DNA from: Escherichia phage kaaroe
Strand: one strand, 5' to 3'
DNA length: 64,000 bases
Sequence record: MN850574.1
Both the position numbers and the translations under genes were made by a program. Of the stretch, positions 6,714 to 41,841 are shown in pieces; position 1 is the first letter of the stretch, and every line of letters starts with the position of its first letter. The notes beneath the pieces were generated by a model. That model saw only the letters and a list, made by a program, of their open reading frames with translations, was not told the origin of the DNA and searched no databases.

Positions 6714-6741
6714 TTGACAGAGCGATTTAGATGCCTATAAT
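6714..6741 (+). promoter_or_regulatory. sigma70-type early promoter (TTGACA-16-TATAAT)
   Basis: TTGACA at 6714, TATAAT at 6736. Confidence 0.65.
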
Positions 6742-23362: not shown

Positions 23363-24103
23363 TCAAAAATCGGCGAAAGGTGAACCCTTGCCATTAATAG
23401 GATCAAATGGGTCAATAAAATCTTGTCCTTCGCTTCTGAATTGCTTATCTTCTTTGTACTGATCTAGGTTGATATCTGTTAACCCGTCCAGATTAGTGAT
23501 CGGTGCAAGATCCAGATCCGCAAACTCATCAACATTAATTCCCTCATTGCGTTGTAATTCTGGTCGCAATTCCTCACCGCTATACACGAATTTCTCTGCA
23601 ATAATTTTACGCATGGCATTTTTGCCAGCCTGAAAAAACGGCTGATATGGCTCAACGTAATTAATTTCAAATAAATCATTACTCATCGGAATATAAATTA
23701 AGTCACCTGATTTTGGCTCTTGATCATCTACTTGATGTTTGAATAGGTTGGGGTTAACCGTAAAAGTTAATTCATCATTAGCTTGATACCCGAAACTAGA
23801 GAAGAAATTACCCGCTCCTTCATACCCATCAAATGAGTTAATATACGCCGCAAATTTCCATGCTTTAGTAAATTTGCTTTGAACATCCTCACCAAAGATC
23901 ATATCTGGCTTGACAAATTCACGAGGGATGTAATATAATTCTACACCTCGCATCTGAATAGCTTCGGCGACCATAACGTCGGCTAACGTCTGAGTATTTG
24001 TATATTTGTGAAAGTTCACATAAGGATTAAGAATCTCTGTTTGTCGTGTATTCTCATAATCCTTTTGCGATTCAAGGCGAGCAAAAAGAGTGTTGTTAAA
24101 CAT
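23363..24103 (-). CDS. 14: neck protein gp14
   Basis: 246 aa, synteny 13-14-15. Confidence 0.8.
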
Positions 24104-28945: not shown

Positions 28946-30748
28946 TTAACCTACCCTTAGCCAACGATAGACAGTTCTGTATGGAGGAAGAATACCCATC
29001 ATTGATGGATCGGTATTTCCCTGATTAACCTTAACATTATCTTCTCGATATTTGGTAAACGCTGGACCTACTGCATCAGGGTCTACCTGACAACCACCGA
29101 TAATAATATTTCCGTTATCATCTTTTACAAGAACTCGATCGTTGCTCTGTAATTCAGGAATCATATTTTTCTTGATCTGGTATGCAACATCACCACCGTT
29201 ACCACCTGCGGTGTGTGTAGGTTGACCATGTGTATCAAGATCGTTGTTGTTTAGTGCGAAGTTTTGATCGCTTGCGTCAGAAGACCAACCAGCCAGAAAT
29301 TCTCCTTCCGCATAACGTACCCATGTACCAATTCCCATATATGTCGCCGGGTTAGCTGGGTTATGCGCGTTTTCATAAATTGTGCCTATAGGATGGAAAA
29401 TATCAAAGATGGAATAGATATCCATCACACGACCTGTATAATCTTCCATTGGGCGTTTAGTTGCTTGGCTTGGATTCTGGAAATCGGTATATTCAATTCG
29501 ATTTGTCAGAGTAACTTCATCTTCGTTATTAAGATAGATTTTATCTGCTTTTTCTTTAATACCGCCTACACCGTCCCATTCCATTAATGTTCCGATATCA
29601 TTATTAAACCAGCGAATTGTGATAGTGTCTCTGTTATCTAGTGCTTTAGATAATTTAATACCAGTCACCACGCTGTTTTCGTCAAACATTAATGAATAAT
29701 CTTCACCAGATTCCACCCATTGACCGCCAGCAAGTACGCAGGTTTCTTCCGTTTCACCGTCAGCACCTTCACAAATAAAGGAAGGTAAATCCGCATCACC
29801 CGCTTTAATCATTTGTGTGCCGTTGATCAGCAATTCAAATGAATTTGGATTAATAAGATCTCGCTTACTTACGCCTAATTCAGCATTAGTAAACTCTTTC
29901 TTATTAGCAAGTTCACCGACCCAAACTTCACCTGGGATGGATTCCAAAGTGGTTATTCCTGTTTCATAAACGCGGATTGTATGAGTAATATAGCTTGACC
30001 GGAAGGATGCGATACCGTCCATATAAGTGATGATTTGAATGGTATCACCCGCCGAACAAGGGAAGCGTAATTTAATGCTTTTACCGTCCAGAGGAACAAT
30101 ATCACCGTTTTCACCGATTGAACCATAGTTAGAATCATCGGTTAAATCCTTGCCATAATAAAGCAAGTTACCGCGATAATACACTTCAACATTTCGAATA
30201 TTGTAAGTATTGGAACCAAACACATTAGGGAAGTCTGTTTGTCCTTCGGTTGCAATATAAACTTCCTTAGCGACTGTGCTTAAATCGGAAGTGGTGATAG
30301 TATCTACTCGTTTATTTTCGACATATTCCCAACGTCCGGGCGCACAATAAACCAATTCAACATCCATGAAATCTTTATACAACTCACGGTCGATTGGAGA
30401 TCCCTTAATGGTATCACCTTGTGCTGGCTTCAACGTTACGTTATGTGCAGCCCATGAGCGCCAAACATCACGAAGTTTAATTGTTTTATTATAATCACTC
30501 GCGCTTCCTTTAGGCAATTCAACAGAAACAGCGTTGTTCGTTGTATTAATCGCCCATGCATCACCAAAATTTGGTTTTAATACTGGTTGTGTGTGAGTTT
30601 TCCACGCGCCGGATGCATGAGGGATATCACCATCCCCCAGCTTAGTATAAAGTTCAGAAAAGTTGTCATTAATCTTTTGACCGCCTTTTCTTAGATAATC
30701 ACCTGTACCGTCATCAACAACGTTACCGATATTAATTAATTGTTTCAT
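28946..30748 (-). CDS. 10: baseplate wedge protein gp10
   Basis: 600 aa, synteny and size. Confidence 0.85.
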   Translation of the reverse strand: MKQLINIGNVVDDGTGDYLRKGGQKINDNFSELYTKLGDGDIPHASGAWKTHTQPVLKPNFGDAWAINTTNNAVSVELPKGSASDYNKTIKLRDVWRSWAAHNVTLKPAQGDTIKGSPIDRELYKDFMDVELVYCAPGRWEYVENKRVDTITTSDLSTVAKEVYIATEGQTDFPNVFGSNTYNIRNVEVYYRGNLLYYGKDLTDDSNYGSIGENGDIVPLDGKSIKLRFPCSAGDTIQIITYMDGIASFRSSYITHTIRVYETGITTLESIPGEVWVGELANKKEFTNAELGVSKRDLINPNSFELLINGTQMIKAGDADLPSFICEGADGETEETCVLAGGQWVESGEDYSLMFDENSVVTGIKLSKALDNRDTITIRWFNNDIGTLMEWDGVGGIKEKADKIYLNNEDEVTLTNRIEYTDFQNPSQATKRPMEDYTGRVMDIYSIFDIFHPIGTIYENAHNPANPATYMGIGTWVRYAEGEFLAGWSSDASDQNFALNNNDLDTHGQPTHTAGGNGGDVAYQIKKNMIPELQSNDRVLVKDDNGNIIIGGCQVDPDAVGPAFTKYREDNVKVNQGNTDPSMMGILPPYRTVYRWLRVG

Positions 30749-31599
30749 GTAGCAACCCCGATTTTAATAGTGTCTACGGCTTTAACTGCTAAACGAATAT
30801 TTTCGCCAGTAGCCTTATACTCTGCATATACTTTATCGCCGGAACCGATGAAATAACGAACCGTGTATAGTTCATCTTCTGTCTTCTGCAAAACTGCATA
30901 TTCCGTCGCATAAACTTTTCCGGCTTTAGAATCAATCATCAGTAGCGTTTCACTTGAACGCATTTTTGAACCGGATGTATTGCTAGCGGTAGTTAATAAT
31001 TTGATGGAAACGTATTCTGTTTTTGCGGCAATAGCAACGTTTGTTGCTACTCCAGTTACGTTAACTGTTTTATCTAATGGCGTTGTTGTATCGGTAAACA
31101 TACTTTCGATACCCAATCGCCATGTTACGCGACTACCTTCAACGGCAGTACACCAAACAGTGACTTTTGAAAATGGTTGTGTTATTGTAGCATCACCGGA
31201 ATAACCGCTAATAGAATCACCTGCTTGAGTTCGAATATTGAGCGGTGTCGTCGTTGAAAGGCTACCGTTACTATTTATGAATACAACACCCTCGCCGACC
31301 TTTGCTTTAGGTAGAATAGCAATAAGTGCGCCTTGAGTTGTATCGATATCGTGTAGACTCCCAATCTCAACAGCGGAACCAGCGTAGCTTTGACGTGGAT
31401 GCTTCTGATAGTATCCGGTTGCATGAATAACCATTCTTCCCACGCCGTGGTCTACGTCTTTAAACCTCTGATCAGCAAATGCGTCATATATTGAATCAAA
31501 GTTATCGTTAATTTTATTACCGCCATCATATAAGATATCGCCAGTCGATGGATTGCCGACAGTACCTGTGTCTATTCTTTTCTTTGGAACTTGTGCCAT
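30745..31599 (-). CDS. 9: baseplate wedge / long tail fiber socket protein gp9
   Basis: 284 aa, synteny and size. Confidence 0.85.
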   Translation of the reverse strand: MAQVPKKRIDTGTVGNPSTGDILYDGGNKINDNFDSIYDAFADQRFKDVDHGVGRMVIHATGYYQKHPRQSYAGSAVEIGSLHDIDTTQGALIAILPKAKVGEGVVFINSNGSLSTTTPLNIRTQAGDSISGYSGDATITQPFSKVTVWCTAVEGSRVTWRLGIESMFTDTTTPLDKTVNVTGVATNVAIAAKTEYVSIKLLTTASNTSGSKMRSSETLLMIDSKAGKVYATEYAVLQKTEDELYTVRYFIGSGDKVYAEYKATGENIRLAVKAVDTIKIGVAT

Positions 31600-31626: not shown

Positions 31627-31634
31627 TATTTATA
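31627..31634 (-). promoter_or_regulatory. T4-type late promoter motif TATAAATA (for gp9)
   Basis: exact motif on minus strand about 28 nt upstream of gp9 ATG. Confidence 0.5.
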
Positions 31635-31643
31635 AAATACATA

Positions 31644-31669
31644 CAAAAAAGCCGCCCACAAGGACGGCT
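31644..31669 (-). terminator. rho-independent terminator ending the methyltransferase cassette
   Basis: hairpin AGCCGTCC-TTGT-GGGCGGCT with T-run on minus strand. Confidence 0.65.
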
Positions 31670-31674
31670 TATAA

Positions 31675-32514
31675 TTAAATGTCAAACAAATCTGAGAGCG
31701 TCCCAGACTCGCTTTCCTGTTTCGGTAAGGTAATCTCCTTACTTTCTTCTATTTGTTCGTTAGGACGTGATTTAGGCGCTTCTACGGCTTCTTTCTCGTA
31801 ATACCGAACCTCAACCACTTCTGTTAAAACGTTTGTACTATGCCATTCATCGCGATAGATTGATGTATCGATCCCACATCCGGCATAAGTCACCAAACCA
31901 GTTTGTTTGCTCCATTTTAGATATTTATTAGACTTCATGGTCCCGTCATAATAAGGTCTGCCGGAATAAGCAAAACCAGCGGAACCAGAAGGAACAATAA
32001 AATAACCTACATCGGCAAACTTCTGGCCTAATGTCATAACCTTAAATTCAAACTCACCGCCAGTGTACTCAAATACATCCTTTGTGTCGGTTGTATTGAT
32101 TTTCCCGAAGGGTGGATTGCTGATCACCACATCGAATTTTTCGTTTGACTCAAATTCGAATACATCGCTGGTGATCCATTCTGCCTCCGGTAATAGTCTC
32201 TTGCCAATACGCGCAAATTCTGGATTGAGTTCGACGCATACGATCTTTTCTGGCTTACAACGATGTAACATACAAAAAGATAAGCGACCGATCCCAGCAC
32301 AAAGATCTAATACTTTTCCTGTGCAATGTGCATCGATGGTAAAATCCCATGCAAGCCCTTCTGGGGTAAAGAATGCACCTGAACCGCCTAGACCATCGCC
32401 ATGATAGTTATTATAGCAAAATTCTTTTTCTTCATATGTCAATGGGCGATCTGAATTAATCAACTCCATCACCCGATCGTGTAATTTTTGTTCTTGTTTA
32501 GAAAGTCGTGCCAT
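31675..32514 (-). CDS. N6-adenine DNA methyltransferase, gamma-class (motif X FFTPEGL, motif I LDLCAGIGRL, motif IV NPPFG)
   Basis: motif order X-I-IV read directly from translation; inserted between gp9 and gp8. Confidence 0.75.
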   Translation of the reverse strand: MARLSKQEQKLHDRVMELINSDRPLTYEEKEFCYNNYHGDGLGGSGAFFTPEGLAWDFTIDAHCTGKVLDLCAGIGRLSFCMLHRCKPEKIVCVELNPEFARIGKRLLPEAEWITSDVFEFESNEKFDVVISNPPFGKINTTDTKDVFEYTGGEFEFKVMTLGQKFADVGYFIVPSGSAGFAYSGRPYYDGTMKSNKYLKWSKQTGLVTYAGCGIDTSIYRDEWHSTNVLTEVVEVRYYEKEAVEAPKSRPNEQIEESKEITLPKQESESGTLSDLFDI

Positions 32515-32846
32515 TATTTAACCTTTGCTGTGACGGTAACGCTATGTCCCAAATAAACATGAGACATAAAGAACACAAAGTTTTTAAATTGCGGATTCTT
32601 ACGAATCCATCGTTTCAATTTTCGAATGCAAGTTATACGATGGTCATAATTAGAATAACTAAATTCAATACCCTGTTTCATCATCTCGTGCATTTCTTCG
32701 TATGTGTGCCATTGGTTATCATGTTTACAAAACCAATGAGTACCATAGAGTTTAGGATCTTGTGCACGTAGACCATAGTAATGCTTTTGCATTGGGAACT
32801 TAGCTTTATTCATTGTGTAATGCAATTTAATATTTACGCGTGCCAT
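32514..32846 (-). CDS. hypothetical protein (110 aa), cassette gene 2
   Basis: stop overlaps methyltransferase ATG (TAATG), translational coupling. Confidence 0.5.
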   Translation of the reverse strand: MARVNIKLHYTMNKAKFPMQKHYYGLRAQDPKLYGTHWFCKHDNQWHTYEEMHEMMKQGIEFSYSNYDHRITCIRKLKRWIRKNPQFKNFVFFMSHVYLGHSVTVTAKVK

Positions 32847-33091
32847 TTTCTAGTTCCCCACATACCGAAAGTTGGATTATACACAAAATAGATAGCTTCG
32901 TCGATAGTCTTGAATCGTTTAGTGTCATTCATGAAGTTGATACCCTCCCATAGTTCATCGGTGTAATCGGCTAGTGATGAATGAGTATGATCGATGATCT
33001 CTCCAATCTTTTCACCGTTCGCGATCACATCCCAACCGCAAGGGGATACCTGAATTGCTTCACAATTATCTGTAAATTTACGACGTGCCAT
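32834..33091 (-). CDS. hypothetical protein (85 aa), cassette gene 1
   Basis: GGAGGAT RBS; downstream of consensus sigma70 promoter. Confidence 0.5.
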   Translation of the reverse strand: MARRKFTDNCEAIQVSPCGWDVIANGEKIGEIIDHTHSSLADYTDELWEGINFMNDTKRFKTIDEAIYFVYNPTFGMWGTRKWHA

Positions 33092-33120
33092 AATTTATCC
33101 TCCGTTGTTTAGATGTGAGC

Positions 33121-33149
33121 ATTATACCTTTACCAGATAAGACTGTCAA
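33121..33149 (-). promoter_or_regulatory. consensus sigma70 promoter TTGACA-17-TATAAT (minus strand)
   Basis: perfect -35 and -10 hexamers with 17-nt spacer upstream of cassette gene 1. Confidence 0.75.
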
Positions 33150-33160
33150 TACCCAAAATA

Positions 33161-33188
33161 GAAAAAGCCAACTCTCTCGAATTGGCTT
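33161..33188 (-). terminator. rho-independent terminator after gp8
   Basis: hairpin AGCCAA-N10-TTGGCT flanked by A/T runs. Confidence 0.55.
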
Positions 33189-33201
33189 TTAAATCATACA
33201 C

Positions 33202-34197
33202 TTAGAACTCAAACAATACAGAAACAAGTTCTGTTTGATCTAATGACCGAACGATAGGTTGTCGGTTTTCCATGTAGATCATTTCGCCTGAGTGTGGCTC
33301 TAAGTCTTGCGGTCGGTACTTATCTTTGACCGCTTTAACGTCTGGATCGCTAGGGCGTGCTTTCTTTTCCAATGGGTTAAGGATAATGCTTAACTGACGG
33401 AAACCAGTATTACCCACTAACGCGGTAGTTGGGAATTGCGCAGAGTCCATATAAGCCTGAAAACGCAAAGTTACTACTTTCAGCCGATAAAGCAGATTAT
33501 AGTCATTATACCAGGTGATCACATTGTCATAACCCCAACGCGCCGGATCTTGTCGCAGTTCATCGGGGAACGGTACAACAATATGTTCATTGGTGCAACG
33601 GTTGATCGCCGCATCAGGTGGAATTGTGTACAGATATTCCCAACGATACCCATCACCCATATCAATAGAATCGCCCTTTCCTACAGGTGGCGCAATTGAT
33701 TCATGAGTGGGGGTCCACTTTCCGCCCAACTTCAAACACTCTACTTTAGCGTCAATGCTTGAAATCGAGCAGTAACCGCGATCAGGAACATCGGTTACGC
33801 GATACACCATCCAGCCGCTACCAACATCAGTTCTGTTATATGGTGCTGAGTTGACAACAACAATGTCATTGATAAAGAATGTGCGCGGGTTATCCTGTCC
33901 GGTATCACCCCAATCTTTACGAGGGATAACCGCATCAAGAAGTGATTTGTTAATCTTAACCGCCCCCATCATATGGGTCCACATGTCAACAACACCAGCC
34001 GTTGAATCGGTCGGATAAGGTGGGGCAAAGCCCACCTCTTTTTCGTTTTCTGACCACGGCTCCGAACGTCCAAACGTTCCATAAATTGTAATTTGATTTG
34101 CCTCATCGCCTACAGAATTATAGAAATTCAGAAGTTTTTCCGTTCTGAATTTACTAGTAATGATTGAGCGATAGATCACACTATTTTCATTAGCCAT
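33202..34197 (-). CDS. 8: baseplate wedge protein gp8
   Basis: 331 aa, synteny and size. Confidence 0.85.
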   Translation of the reverse strand: MANENSVIYRSIITSKFRTEKLLNFYNSVGDEANQITIYGTFGRSEPWSENEKEVGFAPPYPTDSTAGVVDMWTHMMGAVKINKSLLDAVIPRKDWGDTGQDNPRTFFINDIVVVNSAPYNRTDVGSGWMVYRVTDVPDRGYCSISSIDAKVECLKLGGKWTPTHESIAPPVGKGDSIDMGDGYRWEYLYTIPPDAAINRCTNEHIVVPFPDELRQDPARWGYDNVITWYNDYNLLYRLKVVTLRFQAYMDSAQFPTTALVGNTGFRQLSIILNPLEKKARPSDPDVKAVKDKYRPQDLEPHSGEMIYMENRQPIVRSLDQTELVSVLFEF

Positions 34198-39467: not shown

Positions 39468-40033
39468 TAAACACCCCTATGTACATAATCTCTTAGTTGC
39501 TGCGCCCACTCATCCCAATTTCCAAAAACGGTTTGAGTATAAACTTTCTCTATTGTGTGTTCGGTTACTACCGGAGGCGGATTAGTTTCACCAGCACCCT
39601 CTCGGCTATTGGAACCACCACTATTTCCTTCACCAGAACCACCAGAAGACTCTGAAACAGATTGGATATAGGTTAGGGTGACTTTATAAGTATAAACCTC
39701 CTGTAGACGTGTAGGAGCGTTAAAATAATATAGATCTGCGGTAGTTGGATCTGGTAAATCATCAAAACTTCCGGCAGATTTTTTAATTCGATCTTTCGTT
39801 ATATATTTAAGAGAATCCGCGCCAAGCGAAAAACTATCCCGATACTCACCAGATATTTTAGTTTCTTCAACGGTAACGCCCTTATTAGGGCGATACTCGC
39901 TGATCTTAAACTCTTTAATCGTGTATGTGGTATTTGCATCCGGTGGCGTTGCTTTATAAGAGAACACCACCTCAAAGATTTCTCGCTCGCTGATATCCTC
40001 CAATTTTGAACTCATCGGAAGAATTTCAACCAT
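39467..40033 (-). CDS. 5.1: gp5.1-like protein
   Basis: 188 aa, synteny. Confidence 0.55.
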
Positions 40034-40041
40034 TAGTTACC

Positions 40042-41841
40042 TCACCCAAGATCAATACGGCTACCATCAATTTTAACTGTACCAGATGCAATATCTTTAA
40101 CGCTTGCACCACAATTACGGGACCAGTCACCATTAACCTGATCTGATTTAGTGCCATTGACGGTCATATTAAAATTACCCTCAACGGTTAAATCATAGTT
40201 ACCTTTAATTGTTTCGGTAGTGTTGCCCTCGATCATTAATTCAGCATTACCCTTGACATTAGCCGTTAAATTAGCGTCAAGTTGAGCGGTAACATCACCT
40301 ACAACATGCATATTAGCTGTACCCTCAACGGTCTGATTAACATTACCACGAATAAATTCCGTGACGTTACCATCAACGGTTTGCATCACATTACCCATAT
40401 AATAAACTTGCGCGTCACCTTCAACAACAACTTGCAAATTACCCTTAACGTTTACTTTCCGGCCTTGTTTAACGATCAGATAATCATCGCCTTCAATCTT
40501 TTCTACCCTCGTTCCGTCCGGTCTGGTTTCTTCAAATGTACCAGAAGGATGTTTGCGATGATATCGCTCATGAGAAGGAGTATCATCAATCTCGATAATA
40601 TGACCGCTCTCTGACTCGTACACATGGTTATAAGGATACCTCGCAGAATACGAACTCTTAGGCTCTTTAAACATGATTCGTGTGTCTTGTGGGGTAAACG
40701 GTGCTTCTGGGTCTTCTTCTGCTCTCTGCGTCTTATAGGCAGCAATACGGGCATTTCTCAAACGTGCTCGCGGATCATCCGAAATTGATTCCTCTTTCTT
40801 TGGAGCAATTACGCCATATGATTCTAAGTTACCAGTTAAAATAATTTTAGAAACACGGCTGGAGCGTCCTGGAGTTTGGTTAGCCCATACCGATTGACGT
40901 AATCCATCATAGGCTTGTTTCCATTCTTCCGCTAACATCGCAGCAAGACTATTCTTAAATTTACCCAATCCTCCAACACCCATTTGAAACGCCATATTTT
41001 CTAATGCCATACGACGTGAGGCATTACATTTATTATAGACAGGTGCAATTCGTGGATGTTTGCGCATATCACGACGAGTCTTTTCTATATCGTCAGCAAA
41101 TACTTTACTAACTTCTTCGGCGGTAAGTCTTCCGTTTGTAACTTCACGCCCTACCAGCTTAGAAAGTTCATTATTGATAATACCAAGATCACTGGTTTTC
41201 TTATAAATGATCAAATGCCCGATGCCTATTGTCGGATATCCTTCTGAATCAAGATACCATTTCTCGCGATATCCCTCATCGCCCCGCAGCATTTTTTCTA
41301 TTGTAAAATCAGGATTATCATCAACCGGAATTTGGTCTAATGGCTCGTCGTCTGGATTTACTGCAACTCCAGTGTTTTCATCTCGAATATAGACACTATC
41401 AGGTTTTGTTGTTTGTCCGGTTTCTGGGTTAATACCGCCACGAGCAAGAATATTAACATCATTACCAATATAACGAGGATATGCACCAGAAGGGTCGCAA
41501 AAACCTTCTGTAGTGAGTGGTTTCTCTGTATATTGTCCGGCAATAGTACCCAGAATAACGCAGTTTAAATAACGTTCATCTAAAGCCAAACCAAATACCA
41601 TTGAACCTTCAACAATACCAGTAGGGCTTTGACCTATACCGGAGATCGCCGCGCTTGTAATATCTTGTATTGGCGTAATCCATAATAGATCTTCTGTTGG
41701 AAGACCTTGAATGTCACCGTGCGCGGATAGCGAGGGATGTATACCATGAATCCTAACCTGAACACGCCCCAGCATTAATGGGTCTTCCCTGTTTTCTACA
41801 ATTCCGGTAAACCATTTAACGGAGTTATTAAACATTAGCAT
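40042..41841 (-). CDS. 5: baseplate hub/cell-puncturing protein gp5 with lysozyme domain and C-terminal beta-helix
   Basis: EGYREKWYLDSEGYPTIGIGHLI lysozyme motif; C-terminal VxGxxxxxV repeats. Confidence 0.9.
   Translation of the reverse strand: MLMFNNSVKWFTGIVENREDPLMLGRVQVRIHGIHPSLSAHGDIQGLPTEDLLWITPIQDITSAAISGIGQSPTGIVEGSMVFGLALDERYLNCVILGTIAGQYTEKPLTTEGFCDPSGAYPRYIGNDVNILARGGINPETGQTTKPDSVYIRDENTGVAVNPDDEPLDQIPVDDNPDFTIEKMLRGDEGYREKWYLDSEGYPTIGIGHLIIYKKTSDLGIINNELSKLVGREVTNGRLTAEEVSKVFADDIEKTRRDMRKHPRIAPVYNKCNASRRMALENMAFQMGVGGLGKFKNSLAAMLAEEWKQAYDGLRQSVWANQTPGRSSRVSKIILTGNLESYGVIAPKKEESISDDPRARLRNARIAAYKTQRAEEDPEAPFTPQDTRIMFKEPKSSYSARYPYNHVYESESGHIIEIDDTPSHERYHRKHPSGTFEETRPDGTRVEKIEGDDYLIVKQGRKVNVKGNLQVVVEGDAQVYYMGNVMQTVDGNVTEFIRGNVNQTVEGTANMHVVGDVTAQLDANLTANVKGNAELMIEGNTTETIKGNYDLTVEGNFNMTVNGTKSDQVNGDWSRNCGASVKDIASGTVKIDGSRIDLG

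What the first reader, a model, noticed from the sequence alone, without database searches (positions are those of the whole stretch)
31640..33190. Early-promoter cassette with a gamma-class N6-adenine DNA methyltransferase inserted between baseplate genes 8 and 9
Seen in sequence: between gp8 and gp9, which are adjacent in T4, lies a three-gene unit on the same strand (85-aa ORF, 110-aa ORF, 279-aa methyltransferase with motif X FFTPEGL, motif I LDLCAGIG and motif IV NPPFG). It is preceded by a hairpin terminator and a perfect consensus TTGACA-17-TATAAT promoter (33121-33149, minus strand), and followed by another terminator and a TATAAATA late-promoter motif that restarts gp9. The three ORFs overlap at start/stop codons. 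Inference: a self-contained, insulated early transcription unit dropped into a late operon, likely an anti-restriction module; the two small upstream ORFs could be accessory anti-defence factors.
Basis: partly seen in the sequence, partly recalled or inferred. Interest (0 to 1): 0.75.

Follow-up and report, generated by a model that had tools for sequence, protein, structure and literature searches.

The report
Clamp-tethered methyltransferase in early-promoter cassette
An RB49-type (T4-like) coliphage carries, between two baseplate genes, a known kind of mobile early-promoter cassette whose methyltransferase ends in the same short peptide that its DNA polymerase probably uses to hold the sliding clamp, so the enzyme probably methylates phage DNA as it is copied.

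Summary
The window is a Krischvirus (RB49/Phi1/JSE group). The hairpin plus perfect TTGACA-17-TATAAT element is a PeSL ("promoter-early stem-loop"), a regulatory cassette already described for RB49 and Phi1 (Arbiol 2010). The gene is already annotated (Phi1 ORF143), so the cassette itself is not new.

The three genes are a composite, not a co-inherited module:
- A metagenomic relative has the methyltransferase alone at the same gp8/gp9 site.
- The 85-aa/110-aa pair occurs without it in rV5-like phages.
- The hairpin plus TATAAATA before gene 9 is also in T4, so it is ancestral.

The methyltransferase has gamma-class motif order and an N6-adenine nucleic-acid methyltransferase fold, but no large target-recognition domain.

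The new point is its tail. After a disordered linker the protein ends ...TLSDLFDI; Phi1 DNA polymerase gp43 ends ...SLTDLFDI, the counterpart of the T4/RB69 clamp-binding tail.

Tails differ across the family:
- Many homologues in smaller phages and prophages end in the bacterial beta-clamp motif QL[SD]LF.
- RB43-like phages carry ...LFTFTIE.
- Some prophage copies have no tail.

Best reading: a replication-coupled, clamp-tethered DNA adenine methyltransferase. Binding, target motif and anti-restriction role are untested.

The parts
33202..34197 (-). gene 8 (baseplate wedge subunit), upstream neighbour
   Evidence: Pfam Phage-Gp8 8e-144 and phrog_977
33163..33190 (-). stem-loop/terminator of the PeSL (AAAAGCCAAttcgagagaGTTGGCTTTT plus T-run)
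   Evidence: terminator scan; dG -15.6 kcal/mol, z -4.9; aligns with the hairpins of other PeSLs
33121..33149 (-). sigma-70-type early promoter TTGACA-17-TATAAT (the promoter half of the PeSL)
   Evidence: 12/12 match, unique in 26-40 kb; 6 in the window against 0.09 expected; conserved leader TATAATGCnCACATC...GGAGGATAAATTATG shared with other PeSLs; PeSL promoter and terminator activity was shown for other copies in PMC2839356
32834..33091 (-). 85-aa ORF (Phi1 ORF140), function unknown
   Evidence: phrog_16603, unknown function; found only in Krischvirus and a few rV5-like phages, where it is adjacent to the ORF110 homologue
32514..32846 (-). 110-aa ORF (Phi1 ORF142), function unknown
   Evidence: phrog_12630; 5 protein clusters in 5.8 billion proteins; two alleles in the genus; AF2 pLDDT 62, unusable
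32610..32850 (-). hypervariable segment of ORF110 (57-78% nt identity to phage Sf20 in a 97-100% identical background)
   Evidence: sliding identity profile
31675..32514 (-). 279-aa SAM-dependent methyltransferase (Phi1 ORF143), gamma-class motif order
32353..32373 (-). motif X FFTPEGL (aa 48-54)
   Evidence: G46-A47-F48-F49-T50-P51 invariant in 29 homologues
32287..32310 (-). motif I LDLCAGIG (aa 69-76), SAM binding
   Evidence: L71-C72-A73-G74-I75-G76 invariant
32104..32118 (-). motif IV NPPFG (aa 133-137), catalytic
   Evidence: N133, P134, F136, G137 invariant and P135 nearly invariant
31699..31755 (-). disordered acidic/Pro-rich linker (aa 254-272)
   Evidence: AF2 pLDDT below 50 for aa 254-273; the linker varies among Krischvirus copies while the tail is invariant
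31678..31698 (-). C-terminal peptide LSDLFDI (aa 273-279), proposed gp45 sliding-clamp-binding motif
   Evidence: Phi1 gp43 DNA polymerase ends SLTDLFDI; these are the only two of 643 ORFs that end in DLFDI; T4 gp43 ends SLDFLFG and T4 gp55 ends SLDFLYEAND; homologues carry QL[SD]LF-type tails
31649..31670 (-). downstream terminator hairpin (AAGCCGTCCttgtGGGCGGCTT plus T-run)
   Evidence: dG -15.9 kcal/mol, z -5.1; the same hairpin-then-late-promoter layout lies at the T4 gene 8/9 junction
31627..31634 (-). late promoter TATAAATA for gene 9 (ancestral)
   Evidence: T4 has TATAAATA at the equivalent place, and so does the relative L095
30745..31599 (-). gene 9 (baseplate wedge / tail-fibre connector), downstream neighbour
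   Evidence: Pfam T4_gp9_10_N 1e-40 and phrog_967

Best explanation
A PeSL (stem-loop terminator plus consensus sigma-70 early promoter) drives a translationally coupled three-gene early transcript inside the late baseplate operon of a Krischvirus. The upstream hairpin blocks late read-through from genes 6-8. The downstream hairpin ends the early transcript, and the ancestral TATAAATA promoter restarts gene 9.

The payload that matters is a compact gamma-class N6-adenine DNA methyltransferase with no large target-recognition domain. A flexible linker joins its catalytic core to a C-terminal peptide (LSDLFDI) that copies the tail of the phage's own DNA polymerase gp43.

Proposed mechanism (inferred): the tail docks into the hydrophobic pocket of the gp45 sliding clamp. 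The enzyme, made early, then rides on clamps at or behind replication forks and methylates nascent phage DNA immediately. RB49-group phages are reported to lack cytosine hypermodification, so this could protect progeny DNA from host restriction.

The cassette is a composite. The methyltransferase is the older resident at the gp8/gp9 site. The 85-aa/110-aa pair is a separate module of unknown function.

Shown: anatomy, family membership, motif conservation, tail identity, and co-variation of tail type with phage type.
Inferred: clamp binding, DNA as substrate, N6-adenine chemistry, early timing and anti-restriction benefit.
For: PeSL:
- Architecture and leader align with 7 other hairpin+TTGACA elements of the window.
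- PeSLs are described and functionally tested in RB49/Phi1 (PMC2839356).

Enzyme:
- SAM-binding and catalytic motifs X, I and IV are invariant in 29 homologues.
- PADLOC mad2 (4e-17) and Type II methyltransferase profiles match.
- One family member is fused to a piece of the N6_N4 DNA methylase domain.

Tail in this phage:
- The methyltransferase ends ...GTLSDLFDI and Phi1 gp43 ends ...ASLTDLFDI. These are the only 2 of 643 ORFs ending in DLFDI.
- The codons for L, D and L differ synonymously between the two genes, so the match is not a recent DNA copy.
- T4 gp43 ends ASLDFLFG and T4 gp55 ends SLDFLYEAND at the homologous position. gp33 and gp55 bind gp45 through C-terminal LDFL (PMC9690074).
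- AF2 shows a folded core, a disordered stretch at aa 254-273 and a short terminal helix.

Tail across the family:
- Of 80 IMG/VR loci, 31 carry Qx[SD][LIM]F near the C-terminus (QLSLFDAA, QLDLFGMAA, QADLFGVAA...), 9 RB43-like copies end ...LFTF[TR]IE, 3 Krischvirus copies end LSDLFDI, and 28 have no tail.
- The strict motif occurs in 31 of 38 methyltransferases against 1 of about 1155 other ORFs in the same loci.
- Among 92 representatives (clusters at 50% identity) with an extension, a relaxed clamp motif occurs in 36% against 0.4% of control ORFs. Motif or terminal [LIM]F: odds ratio 26, p = 5e-39.
- The consensus QL[SD]LF and tolerated variants are given in PMC12867686.
- A beta-motif copy sits in the replication module of a temperate Rhizobium phage that encodes initiators but no annotated polymerase in the stretch read.

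Phage DNA:
- RB49 DNA has no hmC or glucosyl-hmC (PMC4041780).
Against: - No binding, methylation or expression experiment exists for this protein.
- Fold and profile searches cannot separate DNA from rRNA N6-adenine methyltransferases. METTL5/PH1948 score as well as the DNA enzymes. The best Pfam family is the generic MTS, and Pfam N6_Mtase is below its cut-off (16.7 against 20.4 bits).
- There is no recognisable target-recognition domain.
- HPLC/MS of Krischvirus TB34, which carries this gene at 98% identity, found 'no detectable modified DNA' (PMC13390438). This argues against dense or non-specific adenine methylation. The same assay listed only cytosine derivatives, even for T4, so sparse site-specific m6A is not excluded.
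- In RB43-like phages the methyltransferase tail (NLFTFTIE) and the gp43 tail (SLNTLFGDDW) are only loosely alike.
- Some T4-like homologues (Aeromonas phage of 230 kb, Sinorhizobium phiN3) have no tail.
- The representatives are related to one another, so the p-value overstates independence.
Confidence: 0.58

Rival explanations
1. It is an ordinary stand-alone orphan DNA adenine methyltransferase, used for anti-restriction or epigenetic marking. The C-terminal resemblance to gp43 has no clamp-binding function, for example because it is a leftover of recombination or a stability element.
For: Phage orphan methyltransferases are common, and Phi1 already has a T4-type dam and a C5-like ORF189. 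Tail-less homologues exist in prophages and in some T4-like phages, so the core presumably works alone. The last 14 nt of gene 43 and of this gene are identical.
Against: Upstream of those 14 nt the shared residues use different codons. The tail is invariant while the linker varies within the genus. Independent lineages carry the canonical beta-clamp motif at the same position, far above background.
Confidence: 0.2
2. It is not a DNA enzyme. It would be an RNA methyltransferase (METTL5/RsmC/TrmN-like) or a protein glutamine methyltransferase (PrmC/HemK-like), as some GenBank records annotate it, acting on host or phage translation.
For: The best Pfam hit is MTS. The best NCBIfam hit is PrmC (1.7e-9), followed by RsmC. 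The PDB sequence and fold hits include PH1948, METTL5, RsmC, Erm and KsgA. Several records name it 'release factor glutamine methyltransferase' or 'RNA methylase'.
Against: NCBIfam scores are far below the cut-offs (PrmC 37.5 against 199; RsmC 29 against 295). Motif X (GAFFTP) is invariant in the family; by own knowledge it is typical of gamma-class DNA amino-methyltransferases. Defence-system DNA methyltransferase profiles match better (mad2 4e-17). A clamp-binding tail makes sense only for an enzyme that works on DNA. One homologue is fused to an N6_N4 DNA methylase fragment.
Confidence: 0.1
3. The tail is the point and the methyltransferase fold is secondary. The protein would occupy clamp pockets to regulate or antagonise clamp clients, for example by timing late transcription through gp33/gp55-gp45, or by poisoning the host beta clamp in the QL[SD]LF-bearing relatives.
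For: Clamp-binding peptides are used by phage regulators: T4 gp33/gp55 (PMC9690074) and Mu MuC/Mor (PMC12867686). LSDLF also resembles the beta-clamp consensus.
Against: All SAM-binding and catalytic residues are invariant across about 50%-diverged homologues, which shows selection on catalysis. Tail-less copies are maintained.
Confidence: 0.07

Closest known systems
PeSL (promoter-early stem-loop) cassettes of RB49/Phi1 (Arbiol et al. 2010, PMC2839356; Comeau et al. 2014, PMC4122927)
   Same: A G+C-rich stem-loop with a T-run, an AT-rich spacer, a consensus sigma-70 promoter, a conserved leader and a Shine-Dalgarno sequence, placed just upstream of non-core ORFs. The element aligns with the other PeSLs of this window. 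The papers state that a few PeSLs lie in virion modules next to genes of unknown function.
   Different: This copy is not in a hyperplastic region. It is present in 57 of 58 matching records and in a 64%-diverged relative, so it is old and stable rather than a recently shuffled indel. Only the upstream side is a full PeSL. The downstream hairpin belongs to the ancestral gene 8/9 junction.
Gamma-class N6-adenine DNA methyltransferases (M.TaqI, HsdM of Type I systems, Eco57I-like, MADS mad2)
   Different: The core is only about 240 aa and has no separate target-recognition domain or specificity subunit. Pfam N6_Mtase is below its cut-off. The specificity is unknown.
DNMT1-PCNA (eukaryotic maintenance methyltransferase tethered to the sliding clamp by a PIP box)
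   Same: The proposed logic is the same: a short linear clamp-binding motif recruits a DNA methyltransferase to newly replicated DNA (summarised in PMC9690074).
   Different: The enzyme class is unrelated (C5-cytosine against N6-adenine), the motif sits at a different position, and the clamp differs (PCNA against gp45 or beta). Binding has not been shown here.
C-terminal gp45-binding tails of T4-family gp43, gp33 and gp55
   Same: It lies at the extreme C-terminus, is a hydrophobic/acidic peptide after a flexible segment, and is almost identical to the tail of the same phage's gp43.
   Different: It is carried by a methyltransferase, which as far as I could find has not been reported as a gp45 client.
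Bacterial beta-clamp-binding motif QL[SD]LF (polymerases, MutS/L, Hda; phage Mu MuC/Mor)
   Same: Many homologues of this methyltransferase end in QLSLF, QLDLF, QADLF or QLTLF, with or without 2-4 further residues.
   Different: The Krischvirus copy lacks the Q and matches the phage polymerase tail instead. That suggests a tail switched to the phage's own clamp.
T4 Dam (GATC N6-adenine methyltransferase)
   Same: It is a phage-encoded orphan adenine methyltransferase in a T4-type genome.
   Different: The family is different. The Krischvirus Phi1 has a separate dam gene (Phi1 39544-40356), and its Dam has no clamp-type tail (it ends ...EVYVTNVD).

Membership tests
PeSL regulatory cassette (Arbiol 2010) | Stable intergenic stem-loop that can act as a terminator | tested here: met
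   33190-33163: 12-bp stem plus T-run, dG -15.6 kcal/mol, z -4.9
PeSL regulatory cassette (Arbiol 2010) | [quoted passage not shown] | tested here: met
   TTGACA-17-TATAAT, 12/12; GGAGG 8 nt before the ATG; aligns with 7 other PeSLs of the window
PeSL regulatory cassette (Arbiol 2010) | Promoter and terminator activity in vivo; early transcription | not testable with these tools
   Activity was shown only for other PeSL copies (PeSL206/205, 211/210) in PMC2839356
Gamma-class N6-adenine DNA methyltransferase | Motif order X, then I (FxGxG-like), then IV ((D/N)PP(Y/F)), with no target-recognition domain between I and IV | tested here: met
   aa 46-51, 71-76 and 133-137, all invariant
Gamma-class N6-adenine DNA methyltransferase | C-terminal target-recognition domain (or a separate specificity subunit) | tested here: not met
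   The core ends at about aa 240. After motif IV only the rest of the Rossmann fold is modelled. No specificity gene lies nearby.
Gamma-class N6-adenine DNA methyltransferase | Curated profile membership (Pfam N6_Mtase PF02384 or Eco57I PF07669) | tested here: inconclusive
   Eco57I 29.0 bits against a 25.3 cut-off (met); N6_Mtase 16.7 against 20.4 (not met); MTS 38.5 against 23 (generic)
Gamma-class N6-adenine DNA methyltransferase | Transfers methyl to N6 of adenine in DNA | not testable with these tools
   No methylome or enzymology exists. TB34 bulk nucleoside analysis saw no modification (PMC13390438).
PrmC/HemK release-factor glutamine methyltransferase (as in some GenBank records) | NCBIfam TIGR03534 equivalog score at or above its cut-off | tested here: not met
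   37.5 bits against a cut-off of 199.1; the match covers only aa 64-137
METTL5 / PH1948-type rRNA m6A methyltransferase | Close structural match over the whole protein | tested here: inconclusive
gp45 sliding-clamp clients of T4-type phages | Hydrophobic/acidic peptide at the extreme C-terminus, resembling the gp43/gp33/gp55 tails and preceded by a flexible segment | tested here: met
   LSDLFDI against Phi1 gp43 LTDLFDI; T4 gp43 SLDFLFG; linker pLDDT below 50
gp45 sliding-clamp clients of T4-type phages | Physical binding to the gp45 trimer | not testable with these tools
   gp45 is not in the window, so complex prediction was not possible with the tools allowed
Beta-clamp-binding proteins (applies to homologues, not to the window copy) | QL[SD]LF-type pentapeptide at a terminus | tested here: met
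   31 of 38 homologues in L048-L085 against 1 of about 1155 other ORFs; 36% against 0.4% in the representative set

The most novel reading that the evidence does not exclude
A widespread phage and prophage family of compact adenine methyltransferases (342 clusters at E<=1e-30) couples DNA methylation to replication by carrying an exchangeable C-terminal clamp-binding peptide. The peptide matches whichever clamp replicates the phage: QL[SD]LF for the host beta clamp, and a copy of the polymerase tail for gp45 in T4-type phages. This would be a prokaryotic and viral counterpart of DNMT1-PCNA. In cytosine-unmodified T4-like phages it could be the means by which nascent DNA is protected, or marked as self, the moment it is made.
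Probability: 0.5. Interest if true: 0.8.

Novelty: new variant of a known kind. Interest (0 to 1): 0.62.

Why it matters
The cassette itself is textbook RB49 biology: a PeSL driving non-core ORFs.

The tail suggests something not described in the literature I could search, namely a DNA methyltransferase recruited to sliding clamps in phages.

If true, it would explain:
- how a methyltransferase with no target-recognition domain gets efficient access to DNA;
- how phages that lack cytosine hypermodification protect progeny DNA in the window between synthesis and packaging.

It would add methyltransferases to the clamp 'tool-belt' in bacteria and phages. It would also give a clean natural experiment, because one catalytic core carries different tails for the beta clamp and for gp45.

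It is directly testable with peptide binding, tail deletion and methylome sequencing.

Tried and rejected
- **PrmC, RsmC and other RNA or protein methyltransferase assignments.** Their scores are far below the curated cut-offs, so I rejected them as family assignments.
- **Function of the 110-aa ORF.** There is no Pfam, NCBIfam or PADLOC hit, only 5 clusters of near-identical homologues, and AF2 gave pLDDT 62. I did not run a fold search on that model.
- **The 85-aa ORF.** It has no profile hits, and I ran no further search on it.
- **Published PeSL at the gp8/gp9 site.** The main text of PMC2839356 does not mention ORF140-143, and no supplement is held.
- **Methylation data for Krischvirus.** I found only bulk nucleoside HPLC/MS for TB34 and SAP and restriction digests of RB49. 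Neither addresses m6A.
- **Literature on a clamp-binding methyltransferase in phages or bacteria.** Nothing turned up in three searches. The library covers open-access papers only.
- **Recent DNA copy of the gene 43 end as the source of the tail.** I rejected this because the shared residues upstream of the last 14 nt use different codons.
- **Three genes as one inherited module.** I rejected this on their separate distributions.
Full report
**Origin of the window.** The 2-kb region matches 58 phage records at 90-99% identity, and 57 of them cover at least 80% of it. All are RB49/Phi1/JSE-type coliphages of the genus Krischvirus. In Phi1 the three ORFs are ORF140, ORF142 and ORF143, the last annotated 'DNA methyltransferase', and they lie between genes 8 and 9. 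Other records call the third gene 'hypothetical', 'putative methyltransferase', 'release factor glutamine methyltransferase (prmC)' or 'RNA methylase'.

**Observation.**
- Genes on the minus strand: gp8 33202-34197, ORF85 32834-33091, ORF110 32514-32846, methyltransferase 31675-32514, gp9 30745-31599.
- ORF85 and ORF110 overlap by 13 nt. ORF110 and the methyltransferase share TAATG.
- The promoter TTGACA-17-TATAAT (33149-33121) is the only 12/12 match in 26-40 kb. It is one of six in the window, against 0.09 expected.
- The two flanking hairpins fold at -15.6 and -15.9 kcal/mol, with z = -4.9 and -5.1.
- TATAAATA lies 27 nt before the gp9 ATG, and there is none inside the cassette.

**What the regulatory element is.** The window holds many copies of one composite element: a G+C-rich hairpin, a T-run, (T/A)GGTG-TTGACA, 16-18 bp, (T/C)ATAAT, the leader GCACnCATCGAAAC, then AGGAGAATCAAAATG. 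The element upstream of ORF85 aligns with seven of them, leader included. This is the PeSL ('promoter-early stem-loop') described for RB49 and Phi1. About 50 copies per genome were reported, with promoter and terminator activities demonstrated for some. They were proposed to insulate early ORFs from late genes and to mediate modular shuffling, and 'a few' were noted in virion modules next to genes of unknown function (PMC2839356; PMC4122927). So the 'insulated early unit in a late operon' reading is right, and it is already a published concept.

**What is ancestral and what was inserted.** In T4, gene 8 is followed by a hairpin (AAGGGAGCCCATGGGCTCCCTTTTT), then TATAAATA, a Shine-Dalgarno sequence and gene 9. 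The downstream hairpin and late promoter in the window have the same layout. They are therefore the ancestral junction, not part of the insert.

A metagenomic relative whose methyltransferase is 64% identical has this order: gp8, hairpin, TTGACA-16-TATAAT, methyltransferase alone, hairpin, TATAAATA, gp9. Conversely, ORF85 and ORF110 homologues (70% and 59% identity) lie adjacent in rV5-like phages that have no such methyltransferase. Methyltransferase homologues in RB43 (between genes 41 and 61), a Rhizobium phage and a Vibrio phage lack the small ORFs.

The three-gene unit is therefore a composite. The idea that the small ORFs are accessory factors of the methyltransferase is not supported, and their function remains unknown.

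**The methyltransferase.**
- Profiles: phrog_3820 (1e-117), Pfam MTS and Eco57I above their cut-offs, N6_Mtase below its cut-off, PADLOC mad2 at 4e-17 plus several Type II methyltransferase profiles, and NCBIfam PrmC and RsmC far below their cut-offs.
- Motifs: X (GAFFTP), I (LCAGIG), the acidic residue after strand 2 (E95), D117 and motif IV (NPPFG) are invariant in 29 homologues down to 45% identity. The order X-I-IV with nothing inserted between I and IV is the gamma arrangement (own knowledge: Malone et al. 1995).

Fold alone does not separate DNA from rRNA enzymes. There is no separate target-recognition domain.

**The tail.** The family core is about 236-243 aa, and the Krischvirus protein has 279. 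The extra part is a disordered acidic/Pro-rich linker (pLDDT below 50 for aa 254-273) followed by a terminal peptide with a short helix.

The protein ends ...ESGTLSDLFDI. The Phi1 DNA polymerase gp43 ends ...KVASLTDLFDI. Among 643 ORFs of Phi1 and the window, only these two end in DLFDI. T4 gp43 ends ...KASLDFLFG and T4 gp55 ends ...SLDFLYEAND at the corresponding place. The C-terminal LDFL-type peptides of gp33 and gp55 bind the gp45 clamp (PMC9690074). The gp43 tail does the same in T4 and RB69 (own knowledge: Berdis et al. 1996; Shamoo and Steitz 1999).

The last 14 nt of the two Krischvirus genes are identical. Upstream of that, the shared L, D and L residues use different codons, so the match is not a fresh DNA copy. 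Within the genus the linker varies (KQESES, EQETAS, EDKSPS) while SGTLSDLFDI is invariant.

**Family-wide test.** Eighty related loci from IMG/VR fall into classes.

| Class | Loci | Tail |
|---|---|---|
| Krischvirus | 3 | LSDLFDI |
| RB43-, Karam- and Slopek-like phages (about 175-180 kb where contigs are complete) | 9 | [NSD]LFTF[TR]IE or ATFDFRIE |
| Mostly at the extreme end of 28-36 kb prophage-like contigs | 28 | none |
| 12-76 kb phage or prophage contigs | 31 | variable linker, then the bacterial beta-clamp motif near the C-terminus (QLSLFDAA, QLDLFGMAA, QADLFGVAA, QASLFGDAA, QMSLFDAA, QLDIFEQIA) |
| Other | 7 | other tails |
| Truncated or frameshifted | 2 | - |

- In Citrobacter, a tail-less copy is the last gene of an integrated element next to bssR/yliI.
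- In the loci of the beta-motif class, the strict pattern Qx[SD][LIM]F occurs in the last 14 residues of 31 of 38 methyltransferases. It occurs in 1 of about 1155 other ORFs of at least 100 aa.
- A profile search of 1.84 billion representatives finds 342 clusters at E<=1e-30.
- Of the top 150 representatives, 92 carry a C-terminal extension. Of these, 36% have a relaxed clamp motif in the last 14 residues against 0.4% of 1827 control ORFs. Motif or a terminal [LIM]F occurs in 57% against 4.8% (odds ratio 26, p = 5e-39). Many end exactly in QLSLF, QLTLF, QLALF or QLGLF.
- The consensus QL[SD]LF and functional variants at position 2 are documented (PMC12867686).
- A beta-motif copy (…GQLSLFGDAA) sits in the early/replication operon of a temperate Rhizobium phage. 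Its neighbours are a second DNA methyltransferase, DUF1376 and a DnaA-like protein.
- RB43-type gp43 ends SLNTLFGDDW, Slopek-type SLNDLFGDW, and one relative SLSDLFDF while its methyltransferase ends ATFDFRIE. The resemblance is looser there.

**Interpretation.** The tail type tracks the kind of replisome. Phages that depend on the host replisome carry the host beta-clamp motif. T4-type phages with their own gp45 carry a polymerase-like tail. A clamp-binding tail makes sense only for an enzyme that acts on DNA, and this is the strongest available argument for a DNA substrate. One family member is also fused to a fragment of an N6_N4 DNA methylase domain.

I therefore propose that ORF143 is made early from the PeSL promoter, docks on gp45 at or behind forks, and methylates nascent phage DNA. 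RB49-group DNA has unmodified cytosine (PMC4041780), so methylation is a plausible protective mark. The phage also has a T4-type dam and a C5-like ORF189.

**Caveats.**
- No experiment addresses binding, substrate, target sequence or timing.
- Bulk HPLC/MS of Krischvirus TB34 DNA found no detectable modification (PMC13390438). This speaks against dense, non-specific adenine methylation. The assay reported only cytosine derivatives even for T4, so sparse site-specific m6A is not excluded.
- Some T4-like homologues have no tail.
- The statistical contrast is inflated by shared ancestry.
- I found no paper describing a clamp-binding methyltransferase in phages or bacteria, but only open-access literature was searchable.

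**Verdict.** The clamp-type tail and its co-variation across the family look like a new variant of a known kind and are directly testable.

Noticed in passing
window 32610-32850 (minus strand, N-terminal two-thirds of ORF110): Against Shigella phage Sf20 the whole gp8-gp9 region is 97-100% identical, except this segment, which falls to 57-78% nt identity. The genus holds two ORF110 alleles: about 38 records at 95% aa identity or more, and about 24 at 60-80%. This is a localized allelic replacement or diversifying selection.
   Followed up: partly
L001 3001-3575 (Escherichia phage HMD-6); also FV3 and other rV5-like phages: Homologues of ORF85 (about 70% identity) and ORF110 (about 59%) lie adjacent and overlapping in the same order in Vequintavirus-type phages, without the methyltransferase. 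The pair is a small module shared between unrelated myovirus groups.
   Followed up: partly
window 33091, 32846, 32514, 31599 (start codons, minus strand): Four consecutive genes (ORF85, ORF110, methyltransferase, gp9) all start ATGGCAC(G/A), giving MAR.../MAQ... Most methyltransferase homologues also start MA(R/K). This may reflect a translation-initiation preference, and I have no explanation for it.
   Followed up: no
window, -35 hexamer starts at 6714, 7285, 46310, 48302, 48571, 49264, 59265, 60507, 61683 (+) and 5144 (-): These are further PeSL-like hairpin plus TTGACA promoters with a conserved leader. They are concentrated at 46-62 kb, presumably a hyperplastic region. A 12/12 match at 23910 (+) lies where I did not check for genes.
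   Followed up: partly
Phi1 NC_009821: 39544-40356 (dam), 117297-118013 (ORF189), 75207-76046 (ORF143): Phi1, a Krischvirus, encodes three methyltransferase-like genes: a T4-type Dam, a 238-aa protein with an FPPC motif (C5-cytosine-like), and the one studied here.
   Followed up: partly
L092 6001-6729 (Vibrio phage 13VV501A): A tail-less homologue of the methyltransferase is inserted on the opposite strand between the tail-completion and neck protein genes. This is another insertion of the family inside a structural module.
   Followed up: no
L091 4579-7508 (Rhizobium phage RHph_N28_2): The QLSLF-tailed homologue sits in an operon with a PAPS-reductase-like gene and a second DNA methyltransferase, just upstream of DUF1376 and DnaA-like replication genes.
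   Followed up: no
literature: PMC13390438 (Krischvirus SAP and TB34): Two Krischvirus isolates that are 99.96% identical are reported to differ completely in cytosine modification. SAP is glucosylated and TB34 is canonical, with no known pathway genes. The authors leave this unexplained, and a link to the genes studied here is not evident.
   Followed up: no
L059 and L068 (IMG/VR contigs of about 40 kb): Two homologues end in a different conserved tail...(A/T)LDFGDWE(Q/A)(S/T)A. Others end in GLFDLGEAA or QLDMWGEAV. These may be motifs for other clamps or partners.
   Followed up: no
window 33202-33216 (C-terminus of gp8): gp8 ends ...VSVLFEF, which superficially resembles the hydrophobic tails discussed here. 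It is a structural protein, so this is probably coincidence.
   Followed up: no
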